DNA of 64,000 nucleotides from Hemiscyllium ocellatum (taxonomy: Eukaryota), in NCBI RefSeq assembly GCF_020745735.1, contig NC_083402.1:7874001-7938000 (forward strand), in the 5' to 3' direction. Numbering within the stretch: position 1 is the first letter of the stretch; each line of letters starts with the position of its first letter. The translations under genes were made by a program, and so were the position numbers. This document shows, in pieces, positions 11,471-40,140 of this stretch. The notes below the pieces were generated by a model. That model ran no database searches and was not told the origin of the DNA. It saw nothing but the letters and a program-made list of their open reading frames with translations.

Positions 11471-12230
11471 AACCTAGATTCCCTAAAGTGTATGATTCAA
11501 TCAGATCGGCTTTTCCAAATCTCAACAATGGTCACATGTAACTATTAGGTTAGCTTTTTTCTTAAACTTCCAGATTTTTAAAAAATAAAATTCACCTTCT
11601 GCTGTGGTGGGATTTGAACCCATGAACCCAGAATTGGGTGTCTGGATTGGTCACCCAGTGATAGTAACACTAACAGTACACCACCAGCTCCTGTTATAAC
11701 CCATGTGTGAATGCAGGGCTAGGATAGGTCCCACGTGGCTGTGATGCCTCACACAGTCAGATGGACACTGGGGGAATGTACTTGCACTGATGGAACTATT
11801 CCCGATGAAGGTTGGAACCAAGAGGGACACATTAGTCTGTAGCACCTTCCTGTTCAAGGAGATGATTTTAATGTCAGTATAACTTTGGGTCATTTGGAGA
11901 TTGAACTAAATATTCTGAATGTGTCAATGTCTTTCAATACTGACATCAGAATGCACCTAAAAATATCAGCACATCATAGTAAATTAAATATTGAAAAAAA
12001 TTAAATTTGAAGCCAAAAGCTAAAATACTACAGATGCTGGACATTTTAAATGAACATCAAAATGCTGCAAACACTCAGCAGGGCAGAGAACACTGATGGA
12101 GAGAAACAGGGTTAATGTTTTAGTTCCATGTCCTTTCACCAGAAAATCAAATCACAAAACATTCACCGAATCTGTTCCACTCTCACTGTGCACCTTCTAC
12201 AGGCTGAAGAATGTGGGAACGGTTTCTTAC

Positions 12231-12578
12231 CATGTACCTGCAGCCGAGTCTCTTTCTGGATCAGATATAAAAGATTGCGTCTTGACCTGTATTCCACCAG
12301 ACACAGGTAAGTGTGATTGTCCCTCACACTCAGCTGGTTTATCCTGGTCGAGGCGTTTCCCTCCTCTGGGTTCCCGATGAGCTCGTACCGATTTCCACCG
12401 TGTCCAGTTGTCCAAGTTCCCTGTGATTGGGCTGTAAATGTAACGATGTGTTGGTAGGGCTCCTTCCTCATCCAGGTAACAGTGGTCAGGGTGTGGTAGT
12501 CCCAGCTCCTGAAGATACAGGGTAAAGTAACTGAATCTCCCTCTGTCCCACTCACCACTGGGACATTTCCCTGAGCAG
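12231..12578 (-). CDS. Ig V-set domain exon (V-B), Siglec-like but lacking the sialic-acid-binding Arg
   Basis: Acceptor tcctttcctcag|CT at 12578 and donor G|GTAAG at 12230; 348 nt, phase 1-1, open. Motifs: SVTLPC (B-strand Cys), VTWMRK (C-strand Trp), RYELIGNP, DNHTYLC (F-strand), ETRLQV (G-strand); CLVE in place of CRVE. Confidence 0.9.
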
Positions 12579-12763
12579 CTGAGGAAAGGACAAACATCAG
12601 AATGGATGAGGTCAGTGTGCAGAAGTTCTTATTTCAATATGTTACATTCCTTTCAACTTCACAATAAAATGAACAATTAAAGACTCCACTTATATCTCCA
12701 AGAAGAGTCACCCTGATCAAAATGTCTCCTCGTCACTCAATTTGAAAACCTTGATTACAAGAT

Positions 12764-18402: not shown

Positions 18403-18606
18403 CCCTCTACCTCTTTCTCACTCTTTCTGTCTCTCTCTCTCTCTCTCTCTTTGTGCCCCTCTGTCTCTGTCCTTCTCACTGCCTCCTGCCTGAGACCAAC
18501 TGGAAGAGCCCAGGAGAAGGAAAGAATCCAAGAGCTCCCGGACCTGGTGGAGCCTGTCCCCATTGAGCTGTCAGGGCAGTGACACCATCAGAACATTGTT
18601 CCTCAC

Positions 18607-18993
18607 CTTTCACTTCCAGGCGTGTTCCTTTTCTAGATCCAAACTTTTCAATATTGAGCTCCACACGACACCGATAGGAACCATCATCCTCCCGGCTCAG
18701 TCCCTCCATCATTATTGAGGCATCTTTGTTGGTGAGGTTCCCCACGAATCTGAATCGATTCCCACCGTCCCGCTGTATCACATTCTCACACAGCTCACCC
18801 TGGGAATGGTCTGGACCAGGATCTGTACAGTTAAAGATAAAAGCCCGTGTTTCCTCCTTGTACCATAAGATGGAGCCGGTGAGTGTGAGGTTGGTGTCAG
18901 GGTGGGTGAAGCTGCAGGGTAAGACAGCGGAGCCTCCTTCCTCAGCCCACACTCCATCCACGATTGTTATTGACCAACCATAAGCAGACAAAG
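18607..18993 (-). CDS. Siglec-15-like Ig V-set domain exon (V-A), intact
   Basis: Acceptor ctctcccctcacag|CT at 18993 and donor G|GTGAGG at 18606; 387 nt, phase 1-1. WS....V.AE.G..AVLPCSFTHP, FNC...ELC, RFRFVGN, DDGSYRCRVE and GTRLEV parallel the vertebrate Siglec-15 V domain as I recall it (four Cys, CRVE Arg). Confidence 0.92.
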
Positions 18994-19269
18994 CTGTGAG
19001 GGGAGAGAGAGAGAGAGAGAGGATATGAACACAGCACAGACACCAAACAGTGAGGTAAAATATTGAATCTGTTATTTAGTGAGAAAAGATATAATATGAT
19101 ACAATTGTGATTTCTGAACAGACTAGTGACAGAGTGGAATGAACTCCGGGCTGGATACAAGACAGGTCTTCAGGTGGTTTGTAAACATCCTGAGGTTAGA
19201 CTTGGTGGTGTGGGGGCGGGGGGGGGGGGGTGGCGGGTGCGGGGAGGACCCACGGTGATGTGAACAGCA

Positions 19270-36400: not shown

Positions 36401-37870
36401 TTTTCCCCCCTCCCTATTCTTTTTAAATGTTCTAAACCCTGGAACGTCCAGCAACCATTCCTGCCCCTGAGAAACCCACATCTCTGTTATGGCCACAACA
36501 TCATAGCACCAGGTACTGATCCATGCTCTAAGCTCATCACTTTTATTCCTGATACTCCTTGCATTAAAGTAAACATACTTGAACCAATCCTTTGGTTCTT
36601 TCCCAGGGAATTCCTACCCACTGGCTATGCTACCTCTTGCTATTGCCTCATCTCCATCAACTCTCACCACCAGTATATAGCTCAGGTTCCCACCCTCCCC
36701 GTCATACTAGTTTAAACCCTCCTGAACCACTCGAGCAAACCTCCCACCCAGGACATTGGTCCCCTTCCAGTTCAGGTGCAACCCGTCCTTCATGTACAGG
36801 TCCCACCTTCCCCAGAAGACATCCCAATTATTTACATATCTGAAGCCCTCCCTCCTATACCAGCTGCACAGCCACGTGTTAAGCTGCGCCCGCTCCCTGG
36901 TCCTCGCCTCACTATCTCGTGGCACCAGTAGTAAACCTGAGAACACGACTCTGTTCGTCCTGCTCTGCAGCTTCCACCCTAACTCCCTGAAATCACTTTT
37001 TATATCCTCAATCCTTTTCCTGGCTATATCATTGGTGCCAATATGCAACATGATTTCTGGTTGTTCGCCCTCCCCTTTCAGAATCTTATACACCCAATCG
37101 GAGACATCCCGGACCCTGGCACCAGGAGGCAACATACCTTCCTGGAATCCCCATCCTGACCACACAATCTCCTGTCAATTCCCCTAACATTCGAGTCCCC
37201 TACCACTTGCGCTTTTCTATTCTGCCCCCCTTCCCTTCTGGGCCACAGTGTCAGGCTCAGTGCCAGAGAACTGACCACCATGGCTTTCCTCTGGTCGGTC
37301 ATCCCCTCCCCCAGCAGTATCCGAAACGATATACTTATTGCTGAGGGGAATGTCCACAGGGGATCTCTGCACTGTCTGTCTGTCCCCTTTCCTCCCCCTG
37401 ACTGTAACCCATCTATCCTTATCCTGAGCCTCAGGAGTGACCAACTGCCGGTAACTCCTCTCAATTACCCCCTCAGCCTCCCGAATGATCCGCAGTTCAT
37501 CCAGCTCCAGCTCCAATTCCCGAACACAATTTTAAAGGAGCTGGAGTTGGGTGCACTTCCCGCAGATGGAGCCAGCGGAGACGTGTGTCATGTCTCTCAC
37601 CTGCCACATTCTGCAGGAGGAGCAAGCCGCCTTGCTAATATATATGGTCACTTACTTTCCTTCCCAGCAGCCCCTCTGGTCCGTGTCACTTCGCCCACTG
37701 CTCCCACTCCTACTGTGGAGGAAAAACACCACTGGTGACTACCGGTAAGTAATGTTAAACATCTCCTTTACCTTAGCTGTAGCCTTCCTGGTTCACCTTA
37801 CCTCCGCTGCTGCTCCCACTCTAAAAGGTCACTGGCGTCGAAGGGTAAGTACTTATAGTCACTCCTTTCC
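33420..37870 (-). mobile_element. Near-full-length, inactivated CR1 LINE (5' UTR, ORF1 Cys-rich/leucine-zipper/esterase, ORF2 endonuclease and RT, 3' end)
   Basis: ELELDELRIIREAE; GDSNVRG...HIGTNDI; VVMGDFNFPNIDW; NYRPVSL; DFSKTFD; KFAVD; 3' tail at 33420; multiple stops and frameshifts. Confidence 0.95.
34698..35014 (+). mobile_element. HE1-type SINE with a duplicated 5' head, inserted in CR1 RT; 5-bp TSD GACCT
   Basis: ggcggcacggtg(g/a)cacagtgg occurs twice; GACCT at 34693-34697 and 35015-35019. Confidence 0.92.
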
Positions 37871-38097
37871 TTTGAGAGGAGTTCTGGGATTTACATAATA
37901 ATGAACCTAAAACTGTAACACCAATCTAGGTTTGATCAATCTATCGTTTCAATTGCATGATCTTTTGCTATAAATTCTGTGCCTGATGATCCTGCTCCAC
38001 AGCGACCTGATGAAGGAGCAGCGCTCCGGAAGCTCCTACTTCCAAATAAACCTGTTGGACTCGAACCTGGTGTTGTGTGATTTTTAACTTTGTCCCA

Positions 38098-39236
38098 TGT
38101 AAGACACTTCCAGTTTGCCGAGCTGTGCTTTCTTTAGTTTTATTTTTAATCCAGAAGCTACAATGGTTTTTAACGTTTTCAGTCCTGTCTTGTAGTGTTT
38201 TCCCTCAGTAGTGGAAGCAATCAGCATATCGTCAACCTATTGTCATCTTACACACTCTGTTTTGGGAACTTTTGCTATTACATCTGCCATTGCCTGGTGG
38301 AATATAGCAGAGCTAATGAGGAGCCCTTGTGGAACTCTTGTCCAGGTGTACTGTCAGTCACCTGTGGTAAAGACAAATGTATATTGGTGTTTGGGGTCTA
38401 TAGGCAGAGTCCAGAACCCATTTGCTATGTCTAGGATGATAAAGGTCTTGGTTTCTGACCCGATATTGTTTATTATAGTGTTGGGATCTGCATCACCAGG
38501 CCCCAGTTTATCTACATATTTCTTTAGACTGCTATAGTCAGTCGTTATTCTGTATGATCCTTCAGGTTTCTTCACTGGCCACTTTTGGGAGTTTGAGGTG
38601 GAACAAGTTTCTTTTATTATTCCCTGTTTCTCCAAACCATTCGCATTCTCTTTAATTGCCGCAACAGCTTCAGGTCTGATGGGGTACTGTCTTTCAGGTG
38701 GGTGTACATTCCCAGGAATTTCAGTCGGTGTTATGTCCAATCTCCCTCACTGGGTTTTGGGGGTTGCTCATAATTTGGGACACATCATCGCCAATTTGTG
38801 GTCGGGGTTCTCGGAATCCCATTCCCACTCTATTGTGACAGCACGGATACTCTTAAGGAGGCAGGCAATCCTTGTCTTTCCACATTTAAACTGGTGAGCC
38901 CATTTTGGCTTCTCGCACATCAATTATGGCTCCAACTTATTCCAATAAATCCATCCCCAGGACACCACCTTCAGTATTTTTACACACATAAATAGGAGAA
39001 TTAATTACACAATCAGCTATTTTTATTTTAAGCAGTTGGCTGAGAGTGGCTGGTTGAATCCCACTACTCCCTCCCTGTACTTTTAAATTTTTATTTGATA
39101 ATGGTAAATCCAAATCTGTAATACAGATAGAGGCTCCAGTGCCTATGAACATACTGCACGGCCGGCCCCCTAACAGCGTGCTTATATACACCTGGTTATC
39201 CCCTTCTATTTGTCTGAGCACCACAAGCCATCACCT
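38098..39236 (-). mobile_element. Endogenous retrovirus fossil: aspartic protease plus essentially complete RT domain, spumaretrovirus/lokiretrovirus-like
   Basis: Protease MFI(G)TGASICIT...GGVLGMDLL. RT: RQYPIRPEA...WPVKKPEGSYRITTDY...LDIANGFWTLPI...QYTWTRVPQG...Q*VDDMLIAS...GLKIKLKKAQLGKLEVSYMG, with several stops and a frameshift. Confidence 0.85.
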
Positions 39237-39239
39237 GTT

Positions 39240-40140
39240 CACGATTAGTTGTGTGACAGTCTCGTCCCCCCCGCAGCCGCTTCGAGATCAGCGTGTGATG
39301 CAGCAGAGAGTCCGGGCGGGCATAAATGATCTCACAGGCAGAGCCCTTCTCACCACCAGCCAAGCCATGTCTTGGTGCTTGTTGGACAGGTCTGGCGATG
39401 AGGCATTCTGCCAAATTGCTTTGACAGTCTGCTCAGGGAACCACTCAACAGGATCCGCCCTGTCCTTTTCCCGAAGGGTCTCAAGGACGCTACGTGCTGA
39501 CCACTTCCTGTTGGACTTGTGGTCAAAGGTGTTTTTCTTCAAAAATTTCTCCACGAAGGACAGGTGGTACGGAACAGTCCAACTACTCGGAGCGTTCCGC
39601 GGCAGCGAGGCCAGGCCCATCCTTCGCAACACCGGGGACAGGTAGAACCTCAGTACGTAGTGACACTTGGTGTTTGCGTACCGGGGATCCACGCACAGCT
39701 TGATGCAGCCACACACAAAGGTGGCCATCAGGGTGAGGGTGGCATTGGGTGTATTTTCTCCCCCGTTGCCCAGATCTTTGTATAGCGAGTCCCTTCGGAC
39801 CTGGTCCATCTTTGAACTCCATATAAACTGGAAGATGGCCCGGGTGACTGCAGCGGTGCAGGTTCTGGGAATAAGCCAGACCTGTGCCACGTACAACAGC
39901 AATGACAGTGCCTCACACCTGATGACCAGGTTTTTTCCCGTGATGGAGAGCGACCGTAGCCTCCATCTGCCCAGTTTCTGCCTCACTTTACTGATACGCT
40001 CCTCCCAAGACTTGGCGCACCCCCCAGCCCCCCCGAACCAAATACCCAGCACCTACAGGTGGTCGGTCCTGACGGTGAAGGGGATCGAGGATTGGTCGGC
40101 CCAGTTCCCGAAGAGCATGGCCTCGCTCTTGCCTCGGTTT
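39240..40140 (-). mobile_element. Internal fragment of a Tx1/L1-clade non-LTR element (post-RT domain to Zn-finger start)
   Basis: 254-aa frame LGIWFG...WEERISKVRQKLGRWRLRSLSITGKNLVI...; stops at CGG/DETVT; no 3' tail. Confidence 0.85.

What the first reader, a model, noticed from the sequence alone, without database searches (positions are those of the whole stretch)
38098..39236. Spumaretrovirus/lokiretrovirus-like protease-RT fossil
Seen: a protease followed by a whole RT palm with LDIANGFW, QYTWTRVPQG, (Y)VDD and KKAQLG. Established, from my recall of the sequences: foamy virus RT has QYPINP...LDLANGFW...QYCWTRLPQG...YVDD...LKKSEIG, unlike gamma/epsilon-type (DL.NAFF-like) or Gypsy (LDL..GY-like) RTs. 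The protease here has a conventional (D)TGAS...LGMD layout and directly follows a TGA. Inference: a deep-branching retroviral lineage (foamy-like or lokiretrovirus-like) in a shark. The catalytic Asp of the protease and the Tyr of YVDD are both mutated.
Basis: partly seen in the sequence, partly recalled or inferred. Interest (0 to 1): 0.7.

Follow-up and report, generated by a model that had tools for sequence, protein, structure and literature searches.

The report
Old shark retrovirus fossil, not foamy
This is a dead 1.2-kb scrap of an old retrovirus insertion, likely in a shark, and it most likely belongs to a deep fish-and-turtle retrovirus lineage already sampled in the whale shark, not to the foamy viruses or lokiretroviruses.

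Summary
Observation confirmed on the minus strand: a protease plus RT palm with the quoted motifs, broken by stops, a frameshift and both catalytic-site changes. The foamy/lokiretrovirus reading is not supported. Fuller copies of the same family ('A') in G000 have LTRs, 5-bp target duplications, a zinc-knuckle remnant in gag, an in-frame TGA between gag and protease, and a gamma-type envelope (8 of 19 stretches; SnRV-type 0 of 19). RT trees put A with two sister families and shark and sturgeon proteins (99/97), inside canonical retroviruses and outside the foamy clade (100/100) and crown class I. Grouping with loki is rejected (RT p=0.004). Grouping with foamy is rejected by RNase H (p=0.02) and integrase (p=0.011), but not by RT alone (p=0.25). 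The closest named relative is whale-shark Rh_ty_ERV4 of Xu et al. 2018 (81 of 144 RT residues, counted by hand), listed in their 'clade Huo' block. The fragment rode along in segmental duplications of an Ig V-set region. The scan met a similar idea on another genome (e1-7789907).

The parts
38088..39261 (-). Whole surviving ERV fragment (family A): last few codons of gag, protease, RT fingers/palm. No RNase H, integrase, env or LTR in the window.
   Evidence: DNA homology to dispersed copies at 70-76% spans these limits. tblastn with gag, RH-IN and env queries found nothing else in the window, and family LTR queries hit only common repeats.
39231..39233 (-). TGA in frame with the protease: the gag stop of a likely read-through gag-pol junction, not decay
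   Evidence: TGA at the same codon in 4 of 6 dispersed copies read, one codon off in 1, CGA in 1. An in-frame stop at this junction also occurs in family C and in SnRV. The Rh_ty_ERV4 nucleotide passage shows a TGA at the same place (read by eye).
38886..39230 (-). Retropepsin pseudogene; catalytic-Asp position (39143-39141) reads Gly; one internal stop
   Evidence: The same codon stands in all 7 duplicated copies. D-T-G-A is seen in sister-family copies.
38102..38770 (-). Reverse transcriptase pseudogene (fingers/palm), in another frame than the protease; stop at the Tyr of YVDD (38239-38237)
   Evidence: The TAG stands in 7 of 7 duplicated copies.
39288..40052 (-). Flanking LINE-like piece at the junction where gag breaks off (Tx1/L1-like by recall only)
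   Evidence: ORF; no Pfam hit at E<=0.01.
37910..38095 (.). Short repeat, matched in both orientations at other loci, where the RT fragment ends
   Evidence: L052, L053, L054, L058, L146.

Best explanation
The stretch is a dead protease-RT remnant of an old endogenous retrovirus family that most likely belongs to the deep orthoretrovirus-type lineage of whale-shark Rh_ty_ERV4 (filed in 'clade Huo' by Xu et al. 2018) and likely entered the germ line tens to over a hundred million years ago. Shown: the parent family had TG...CA LTRs, gag with a Cys-His knuckle remnant, an in-frame TGA before the protease, RT, tether, RNase H, integrase and a gamma-type envelope. Inferred: Pol was made by stop read-through, and entry used an MLV/Ebola-GP2-type fusion subunit. 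Shown: this copy lost everything but about 1.2 kb, was broken, and was then copied passively in segmental duplications, because the duplicates share the same lesions. It has no function of its own (inferred).
For: RT trees: clade A+B+C+P0052 (Heterodontus)+P0067 (Acipenser)+P0053 at 98/95* (64 rows, LG+G4) and 99/97* (39 rows, mixture model). It lies inside canonical retroviruses to the exclusion of loki (100/97*) and outside foamy (100/100*) and crown class I (100/99*). RNase H and integrase trees put A+B+C together (95/85 and 97/94), on the gamma/epsilon side of the branch that holds foamy and loki for RNase H. Gamma-type TM: tblastn hits in 8 of 19 family-A stretches, C/D-type env in 0 of 19; Pfam TLV_coat 22.6 bits against a cut-off of 22.5 in 1 of 2 A TM pieces scanned. 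L053 carries PR-RT at 75-76% DNA identity to the window together with RH, IN and this TM. LTR pairs at 3 loci, K2P 0.046, 0.11-0.15 and 0.14-0.16; target duplication 5 of 5 and 4 of 5 bases at two loci. Rh_ty_ERV4: 81 of 144 RT residues identical by hand count on the supplement passage, against 69 or fewer in the best BLAST segment for every non-A row. Its tip lies in the 'Clade Huo' block of the S2 Fig text. Duplicates: 7 full-length copies at 97.6-100% with shared multi-kb flanks and shared lesions.
Against: The backbone is unresolved under the mixture model. ABC + class I/II has only 66/62 support. ABC + foamy (p 0.25) and ABC + SnRV grade (p 0.33) are not rejected on RT. The broad Huo block as one clade is rejected in my set (p 0.026), so 'Huo' is the published label and not a result here. 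Rh_ty_ERV4 could not be put in my trees, and Xu's figure itself was not seen. Teleost foamy-like viruses and ERV-L/ERV-S were not in my trees. Class II nests inside class I in both RT trees, a likely long-branch artefact. The window holds no env, so the envelope type is the family's. The best-dated LTR pair (C5) has no PR/RT hit and is tied to the family through LTR, gag, RH-IN and env homology.
Confidence: 0.85

Rival explanations
1. Family A belongs to a lineage that is the RT sister of foamy viruses and later took RNase H, integrase and env from orthoretrovirus-like donors.
For: Best PDB hit is foamy Pol. AU on RT does not reject ABC+foamy (p 0.25, log-likelihood only 1.1 lower). Retroviruses replaced RH and IN repeatedly (PMC7947760).
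Against: Neither best RT tree shows it. RH p 0.02 and IN p 0.011. Gag knuckle remnant, gamma-type env. The family has the xQYVDD context and longer spacer of SnRV/class I, unlike foamy. Three or four swaps would be needed.
Confidence: 0.07
2. It is a lokiretrovirus, the first in a cartilaginous fish.
For: D-x-x-NGFW and YVDD are shared with loki RTs. Wang and Han list no cartilaginous host, although two such genomes stand in their supplement table. A sister family (C) has a possibly F-like env.
Against: AU p 0.004 (RT), 0.028 (RH), 0.046 (IN). The loki PFG...NSPAEF motif is absent (PQG here). The family env is gamma-type.
Confidence: 0.02
3. It is an ordinary crown class I (epsilon/gamma-like) ERV.
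For: Gamma-type env, read-through-type junction, zinc knuckle; RH and IN lie next to class I.
Against: Crown class I is a 100/99* clade without ABC in both RT trees, and 100/99 (IN) and 98/93 (RH) without it. Target duplication looks 5 bp rather than the typical 4 (2 loci; PMC4299795 Table 1).
Confidence: 0.05
4. It is a Ty3/Gypsy retrotransposon.
For: Gypsy-like proteins were among the profile-search hits.
Against: The Gypsy split is 100/99-100*; the family has tether plus a second RNase H and env.
Confidence: 0.01

Closest known systems
Rh_ty_ERV4, whale shark (Xu et al. 2018, PMC6001957, S2 Data and S2 Fig), with turtle Ch_my_ERV12/Ma_te_ERV13/Ch_pi_ERV20 and eel/carp An_ro_ERV5/Si_gr_ERV1 beside it
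   Same: 81 of 144 RT residues identical (hand count); same distinctive stretches around HPP..QYPIRPEA, KY.DK and KKAQLG; same protease start; TGA just before the protease. The turtle elements resemble families B and C by eye.
   Different: A separate family about 44% diverged in RT, in another shark. The env and LTR of Rh_ty_ERV4 could not be seen (supplement text cut).
Snakehead retrovirus (L115/L132; RT matches the SnRV row of the PMC7947760 supplement by eye) and shark SnRV-like ERVs (CmiERV lineage I, PMC4422223)
   Same: Best exogenous RT match (36.5% over 200 aa); in-frame gag stop before pol; gag zinc knuckle; RNase H on the same side of the tree.
   Different: Different env class (SnRV env has no TLV_coat hit); not sister in any best tree; IN far apart.
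Foamy viruses and shark foamy-like ERVs (CmiFLERV rows in PMC6001957; ERV-Spuma.0-Sca in PMC10699275; family F here)
   Same: RT motifs QYPI, D-x-A-NGFW, WTRxPQG, YVDD; top PDB hit.
   Different: Outside their clade in RT, RH and IN; gag knuckle; gamma-type instead of F-like env (PMC11468914).
Lokiretroviruses (PMC7947760, PMC9040795)
   Same: Tether plus RNase H layout, shared by all retroviruses; some RT motifs.
   Different: RT, RH and IN all reject grouping; env not F-like in family A.

Membership tests
Rh_ty_ERV4 lineage (listed in clade Huo, Xu et al. 2018) | RT closest to Rh_ty_ERV4 and its neighbours | tested here: met
   81 of 144 by hand against at most 69 for non-A rows; not placed in a tree
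Clade Huo (SnRV/ERV-L related) as a whole | RT monophyly with SnRV and class III ERVs | tested here: inconclusive
   ABC+SnRV grade p 0.33; broad block p 0.026; ERV-L/S not in the set
Class III / ERV3-ERV4 | 5-bp target duplication (PMC4299795 Table 1) | tested here: met
   5 of 5 and 4 of 5 bases at the two loci that could be read; sister family C shows 4 bp at one locus
Class III / ERV3-ERV4 | No gag zinc finger (PMC4299795 Table 1) | tested here: not met
   CCHC remnant in L056; knuckles in P0052 and in family C
Spumaretrovirinae / clade Tu | RT inside the foamy clade | tested here: not met
   Foamy clade 100/100* without ABC; sister position not rejected; teleost foamy-like rows missing
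Spumaretrovirinae / clade Tu | RNase H with foamy+loki (group I of PMC7947760) and foamy-type integrase | tested here: not met
   AU p 0.02 and 0.011
Spumaretrovirinae / clade Tu | Gag without Cys-His box (established knowledge, recalled) | tested here: not met
Spumaretrovirinae / clade Tu | F-like Env (PMC11468914) | tested here: not met
   Gamma-type TM in 8 of 19 A stretches; TLV_coat hit
Lokiretroviruses | RT in the loki clade | tested here: not met
   AU p 0.004; motif mismatch
Lokiretroviruses | Mononegavirales-F-like Env | tested here: not met
Lokiretroviruses | CGIN1-like integrase; RNase H with foamy | tested here: not met
   AU p 0.046 (marginal) and 0.028
Lokiretroviruses | Optional smc gene | not tested
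   Not looked for
Crown class I (gamma/epsilon; clades Jin, Mu) | RT inside the crown clade | tested here: not met
   100/99* clade without ABC
Crown class I (gamma/epsilon; clades Jin, Mu) | Gamma-type env and in-frame gag stop | tested here: met
   neither is exclusive to class I
Ty3/Gypsy | RT in Metaviridae, single RNase H, no retroviral env | tested here: not met

The most novel reading that the evidence does not exclude
The Rh_ty_ERV4 lineage is the stem sister of all class I (gamma/epsilon) retroviruses, mis-filed under Huo. Its shark families straddle the two envelope classes: A and B carry gamma-type TM, while their sister C and teleost relatives carry an SnRV-type, possibly paramyxo/pneumo-F-like Env. 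It would then record where orthoretroviruses traded the ancestral F-like fusogen for the gamma-type one.
Probability: 0.15. Interest if true: 0.6.

Novelty: new member of a known kind. Interest (0 to 1): 0.27.

Why it matters
The fragment itself is an ordinary dead ERV scrap. Its lineage is deep and thinly described: one whale-shark tip plus turtle and teleost tips in one survey. This genome holds three families of it, with readable LTR-gag-pol-env anatomy. Two envelope types sit side by side in sister families, which bears on how often env was swapped near the base of orthoretroviruses. If the F-like nature of the SnRV-type env holds up, an F-like env would not by itself mark a lokiretrovirus. 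That fold was only suggested here, not shown.

Tried and rejected
Word-index search with the X-read RT gave 1 hit only, an SFV Pol; this is weak evidence and is outweighed by the profile search. Repeat search for LTRs in ten 10-kb stretches found none; the stretches were too short. An early idea that family D was lokiretroviral (NYNRIN-like names) was dropped: its RT sits in the SnRV grade. A_L060's integrase hit groups with Gypsy and was left out. In the RT set, 12 of 224 candidates were too short and dropped, including A_L051, A_L053 and A_L060; the IQ-TREE sets were hand-picked, 64 and 39 rows. F-likeness of the family-C env is inconclusive. Model 1 (pLDDT 33.5) gave 9 pneumovirus-F chains and 1 foamy Env as its top 10 Foldseek rows, E 0.0055-0.08, none at E<=0.001. 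Model 2 (pLDDT 44) gave Vps75 at ranks 1-8 and F/foamy rows at ranks 9-14. hhalign to 36 paramyxovirus F gave E 0.046 (C) and 0.24 (C+D), against 0.079 for a gamma-type control and 0.26-0.81 for 8 shuffles. Pfam Fusion_gly was hit by 1 of 17 members at E 0.048; PDB sequence search found nothing. The protein atlas gave no answer. Paper searches for an F-like snakehead-type env returned 0, 1 and 1 papers. The paper and PMC11468914 hold no such statement in the passages seen; the paper was seen as a listing only. Most subscription journals are not in the library. The shark foamy paper PMC9972966 was seen only as a reference title and is not held. No expression data were examined.

Full report
Observation. 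The features lie on the minus strand. The protease frame 39233-38886 starts at a TGA, reads FIGTGAS at the catalytic site and LGMD at the end, and has one internal stop. After a net frameshift the RT frame 38770-38102 holds all the quoted motifs, with a TAG in place of the Tyr of YVDD. Pfam RVT_1 E 1.5e-19; the protease is below cut-off. PDB holds few deep retroviruses, however.

Extent and context. DNA homology to other copies covers 38088-39261 only. No gag body, RNase H, integrase or env was found elsewhere in the window. A LINE-like piece abuts the gag end, and a short repeat abuts the RT end. The own-genome search gave 21 matches. Seven are full-length at 97.6-100% (the window, two probably redundant small contigs, four more on contig C2), with shared flanks of several kb at 91-97% and the same catalytic-site lesions in 7 of 7. 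The fragment was therefore dead before it was multiplied with a region that holds Ig V-set exons. The remaining matches, apart from one partial duplicate, are dispersed copies at 69-78%: family A. A probe from its integrase-env region gave 55 matches from 40 of 122 candidates scored, a lower bound. The longest shared segments between dispersed copies differ by about 19-25% in 18 of 19 pairs.

Anatomy of family A. L053 has PR and RT at 75-76% DNA identity to the window, followed by tether, RNase H, integrase and an env TM piece. Across 19 stretches, 8 hit the gamma-type env of this genome's epsilon-like family and 0 hit the SnRV-type env of families C and D. One of two TM pieces scanned reached Pfam TLV_coat (22.6 bits, cut-off 22.5); the immunosuppressive-domain and Cys pattern is readable in several copies. 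Gag remains match the Heterodontus protein P0052 and include a CCHC remnant. The TGA before the protease is the gag stop: same codon in 4 of 6 copies, one codon off in 1, CGA in 1, with an in-frame stop at this junction also in family C and SnRV. Read-through is inferred from that layout. Three loci show LTR pairs, K2P 0.046 (745 bp; its first 153 bp give 0.13), 0.11-0.15 and 0.14-0.16. Target duplications of 5 bases match 5 of 5 and 4 of 5. With the shark rates assumed in PMC10699275 (0.5e-9) or PMC4422223 (2.2e-10), these give about 45-165 or 105-370 million years; both rates are assumptions.

References. Foamy, gamma, epsilon, snakehead and alpha/beta viruses came from viral contigs. 150 further relatives came from a whole-library search with a family-B ORF; 20 of them were looked up by name. 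P0159, P0166 and P0196 (teleosts) were taken as lokiretroviruses because their RT motifs match the Loki rows of the PMC7947760 supplement. A search with SFV RT uncovered the genome's own foamy-like family F at 42-48%, a positive control: the window reaches only 32-34% to foamy Pol.

Trees. FastTree on 212 of 224 RT candidates, IQ-TREE LG+G4 on 64 rows and a mixture model on 39 rows all recover A+B+C+P0052+P0067+P0053 (0.96; 98/95*; 99/97*). Loki and Gypsy are outside canonical retroviruses (100/97*). Foamy, including family F, is a 100/100* clade without A, and crown class I is 100/99* without A. LG+G4 makes the clade sister to the class I side (97/93*), but the mixture model leaves this open (66/62). 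AU tests on RT: with loki p 0.004, with foamy p 0.25, with the SnRV grade p 0.33, broad Huo block p 0.026. RNase H: foamy and loki group together (96/91), as PMC7947760 reports, while A+B+C lie on the other side; with foamy p 0.02, with loki p 0.028. Integrase: with foamy p 0.011, with loki p 0.046 (LG+G4). Limits: teleost foamy-like viruses and ERV-L/S are missing, class II nests in class I (likely artefact), and the A rows are short and decayed.

What is known. The S2 Data of Xu et al. 2018 (PMC6001957) holds whale-shark Rh_ty_ERV4. Over window RT residues 17-160 it is identical at 81 of 144 positions (hand count); the best other family gives 69 or fewer in its BLAST segment, SnRV 56, SFV 51-55, loki 45-55. 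Its nucleotide passage shows the same TGA before the protease. In the text of their S2 Fig its tip lies in the block between Shui and Tu that carries the label 'Clade Huo', next to turtle, eel, carp and gar elements that resemble my B/C, P0010, P0061 and P0054 rows. The figure itself was not seen, and long runs in the supplement were cut, so the env of Rh_ty_ERV4 is unknown to me. SnRV-like and foamy-like ERVs in cartilaginous fish are published (PMC4422223, PMC10699275), and most shark RT loci were classed as clade III in bioRxiv 2023.10.17.562709.

Papers seen. PMC7947760: parts 1-2 of 4, passages, supplement search and part 68. PMC9040795: part 1 of 4. PMC4422223: part 1 of 2. PMC10699275: part 2 of 4. 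PMC6001957: parts 1-2 of 5, passages, supplement passages and S2 Fig text. Passages only: PMC12440569, PMC8922424, PMC4299795, PMC11468914, PMC13709493 and bioRxiv 2023.10.26.564294, 2024.03.17.585361, 2023.10.17.562709. Title only: PMC9972966.

Envelope side-finding. Family C, sister to B and close to A in pol, carries an env about 30% identical to that of the SnRV-grade family D, weakly similar to SnRV env (E 0.011), and widespread in sharks. Whether it is F-like stayed inconclusive. One poor model ranked pneumovirus F and foamy Env first, a second did not, and profile comparison was no better than a control. What is shown is that sister families carry different env types; the direction of exchange is not shown.

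Verdict. A real, dead ERV fragment; a new family of a deep but already sampled orthoretrovirus-type lineage; not foamy, not loki. Interest 0.27. The boldest open reading, that this lineage is the stem of class I and records the switch of envelope class, has probability about 0.15.

Noticed in passing
G000, many contigs (L117-L138): A young, abundant foamy-like ERV family ('F'): about 126 of 144 scored matches at 42-48% to SFV RT, many near-identical, with gag and pol in one stop-free 1724-codon frame. RT, RNase H and integrase all group with foamy viruses. Shark foamy-like ERVs are published; I could not check whether the fused gag-pol is.
   Followed up: partly
L071-L080 (family C), e.g. L074:6282-7715: A sister family of A with LTR pairs only 1.8-3.8% diverged (2 loci). 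Its env has no gamma-type TM, is about 30% identical to the env of the SnRV-grade family D, and has homologues in four shark genera. A likely env exchange; possibly F-like (inconclusive).
   Followed up: partly
L081-L087 (family D): Mosaic: RT in the SnRV grade, RNase H on the foamy/loki side (100/98), integrase near loki/NYNRIN-like rows (weak), env with an N-terminal Ig-like hit. Le_er_ERV4 of Xu 2018 looks D-like by eye.
   Followed up: partly
L061-L070 (family B): Old sister family with an Ebola-GP2-like HR1-HR2 TM (Pfam below cut-off), different in sequence from family A's TM; one LTR pair at K2P 0.20.
   Followed up: partly
window 12163-12633 and 18476-19075 (-): Immunoglobulin V-set exons. 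The region around the finding (about 25-48 kb) is repeated at 91-97% at several places along contig C2, so likely a duplicated immune-receptor cluster.
   Followed up: no
G000:C342 and C894: Small contigs 99.98-100% identical to the window (20 kb compared for C342): probably redundant assembly pieces rather than extra copies.
   Followed up: no
window 34680-37174 (-): CR1/L2-type LINE remains with an esterase (GDSL-like) ORF1 piece and an RT piece (LINE class recalled).
   Followed up: no
P0010-P0030 and P0018 (Coilia): Teleost elements related to this lineage in protease, RNase H and integrase; P0010 lacks most of RT. P0018 carries an env piece matching family C's env (hhalign probability 92%).
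   Followed up: partly
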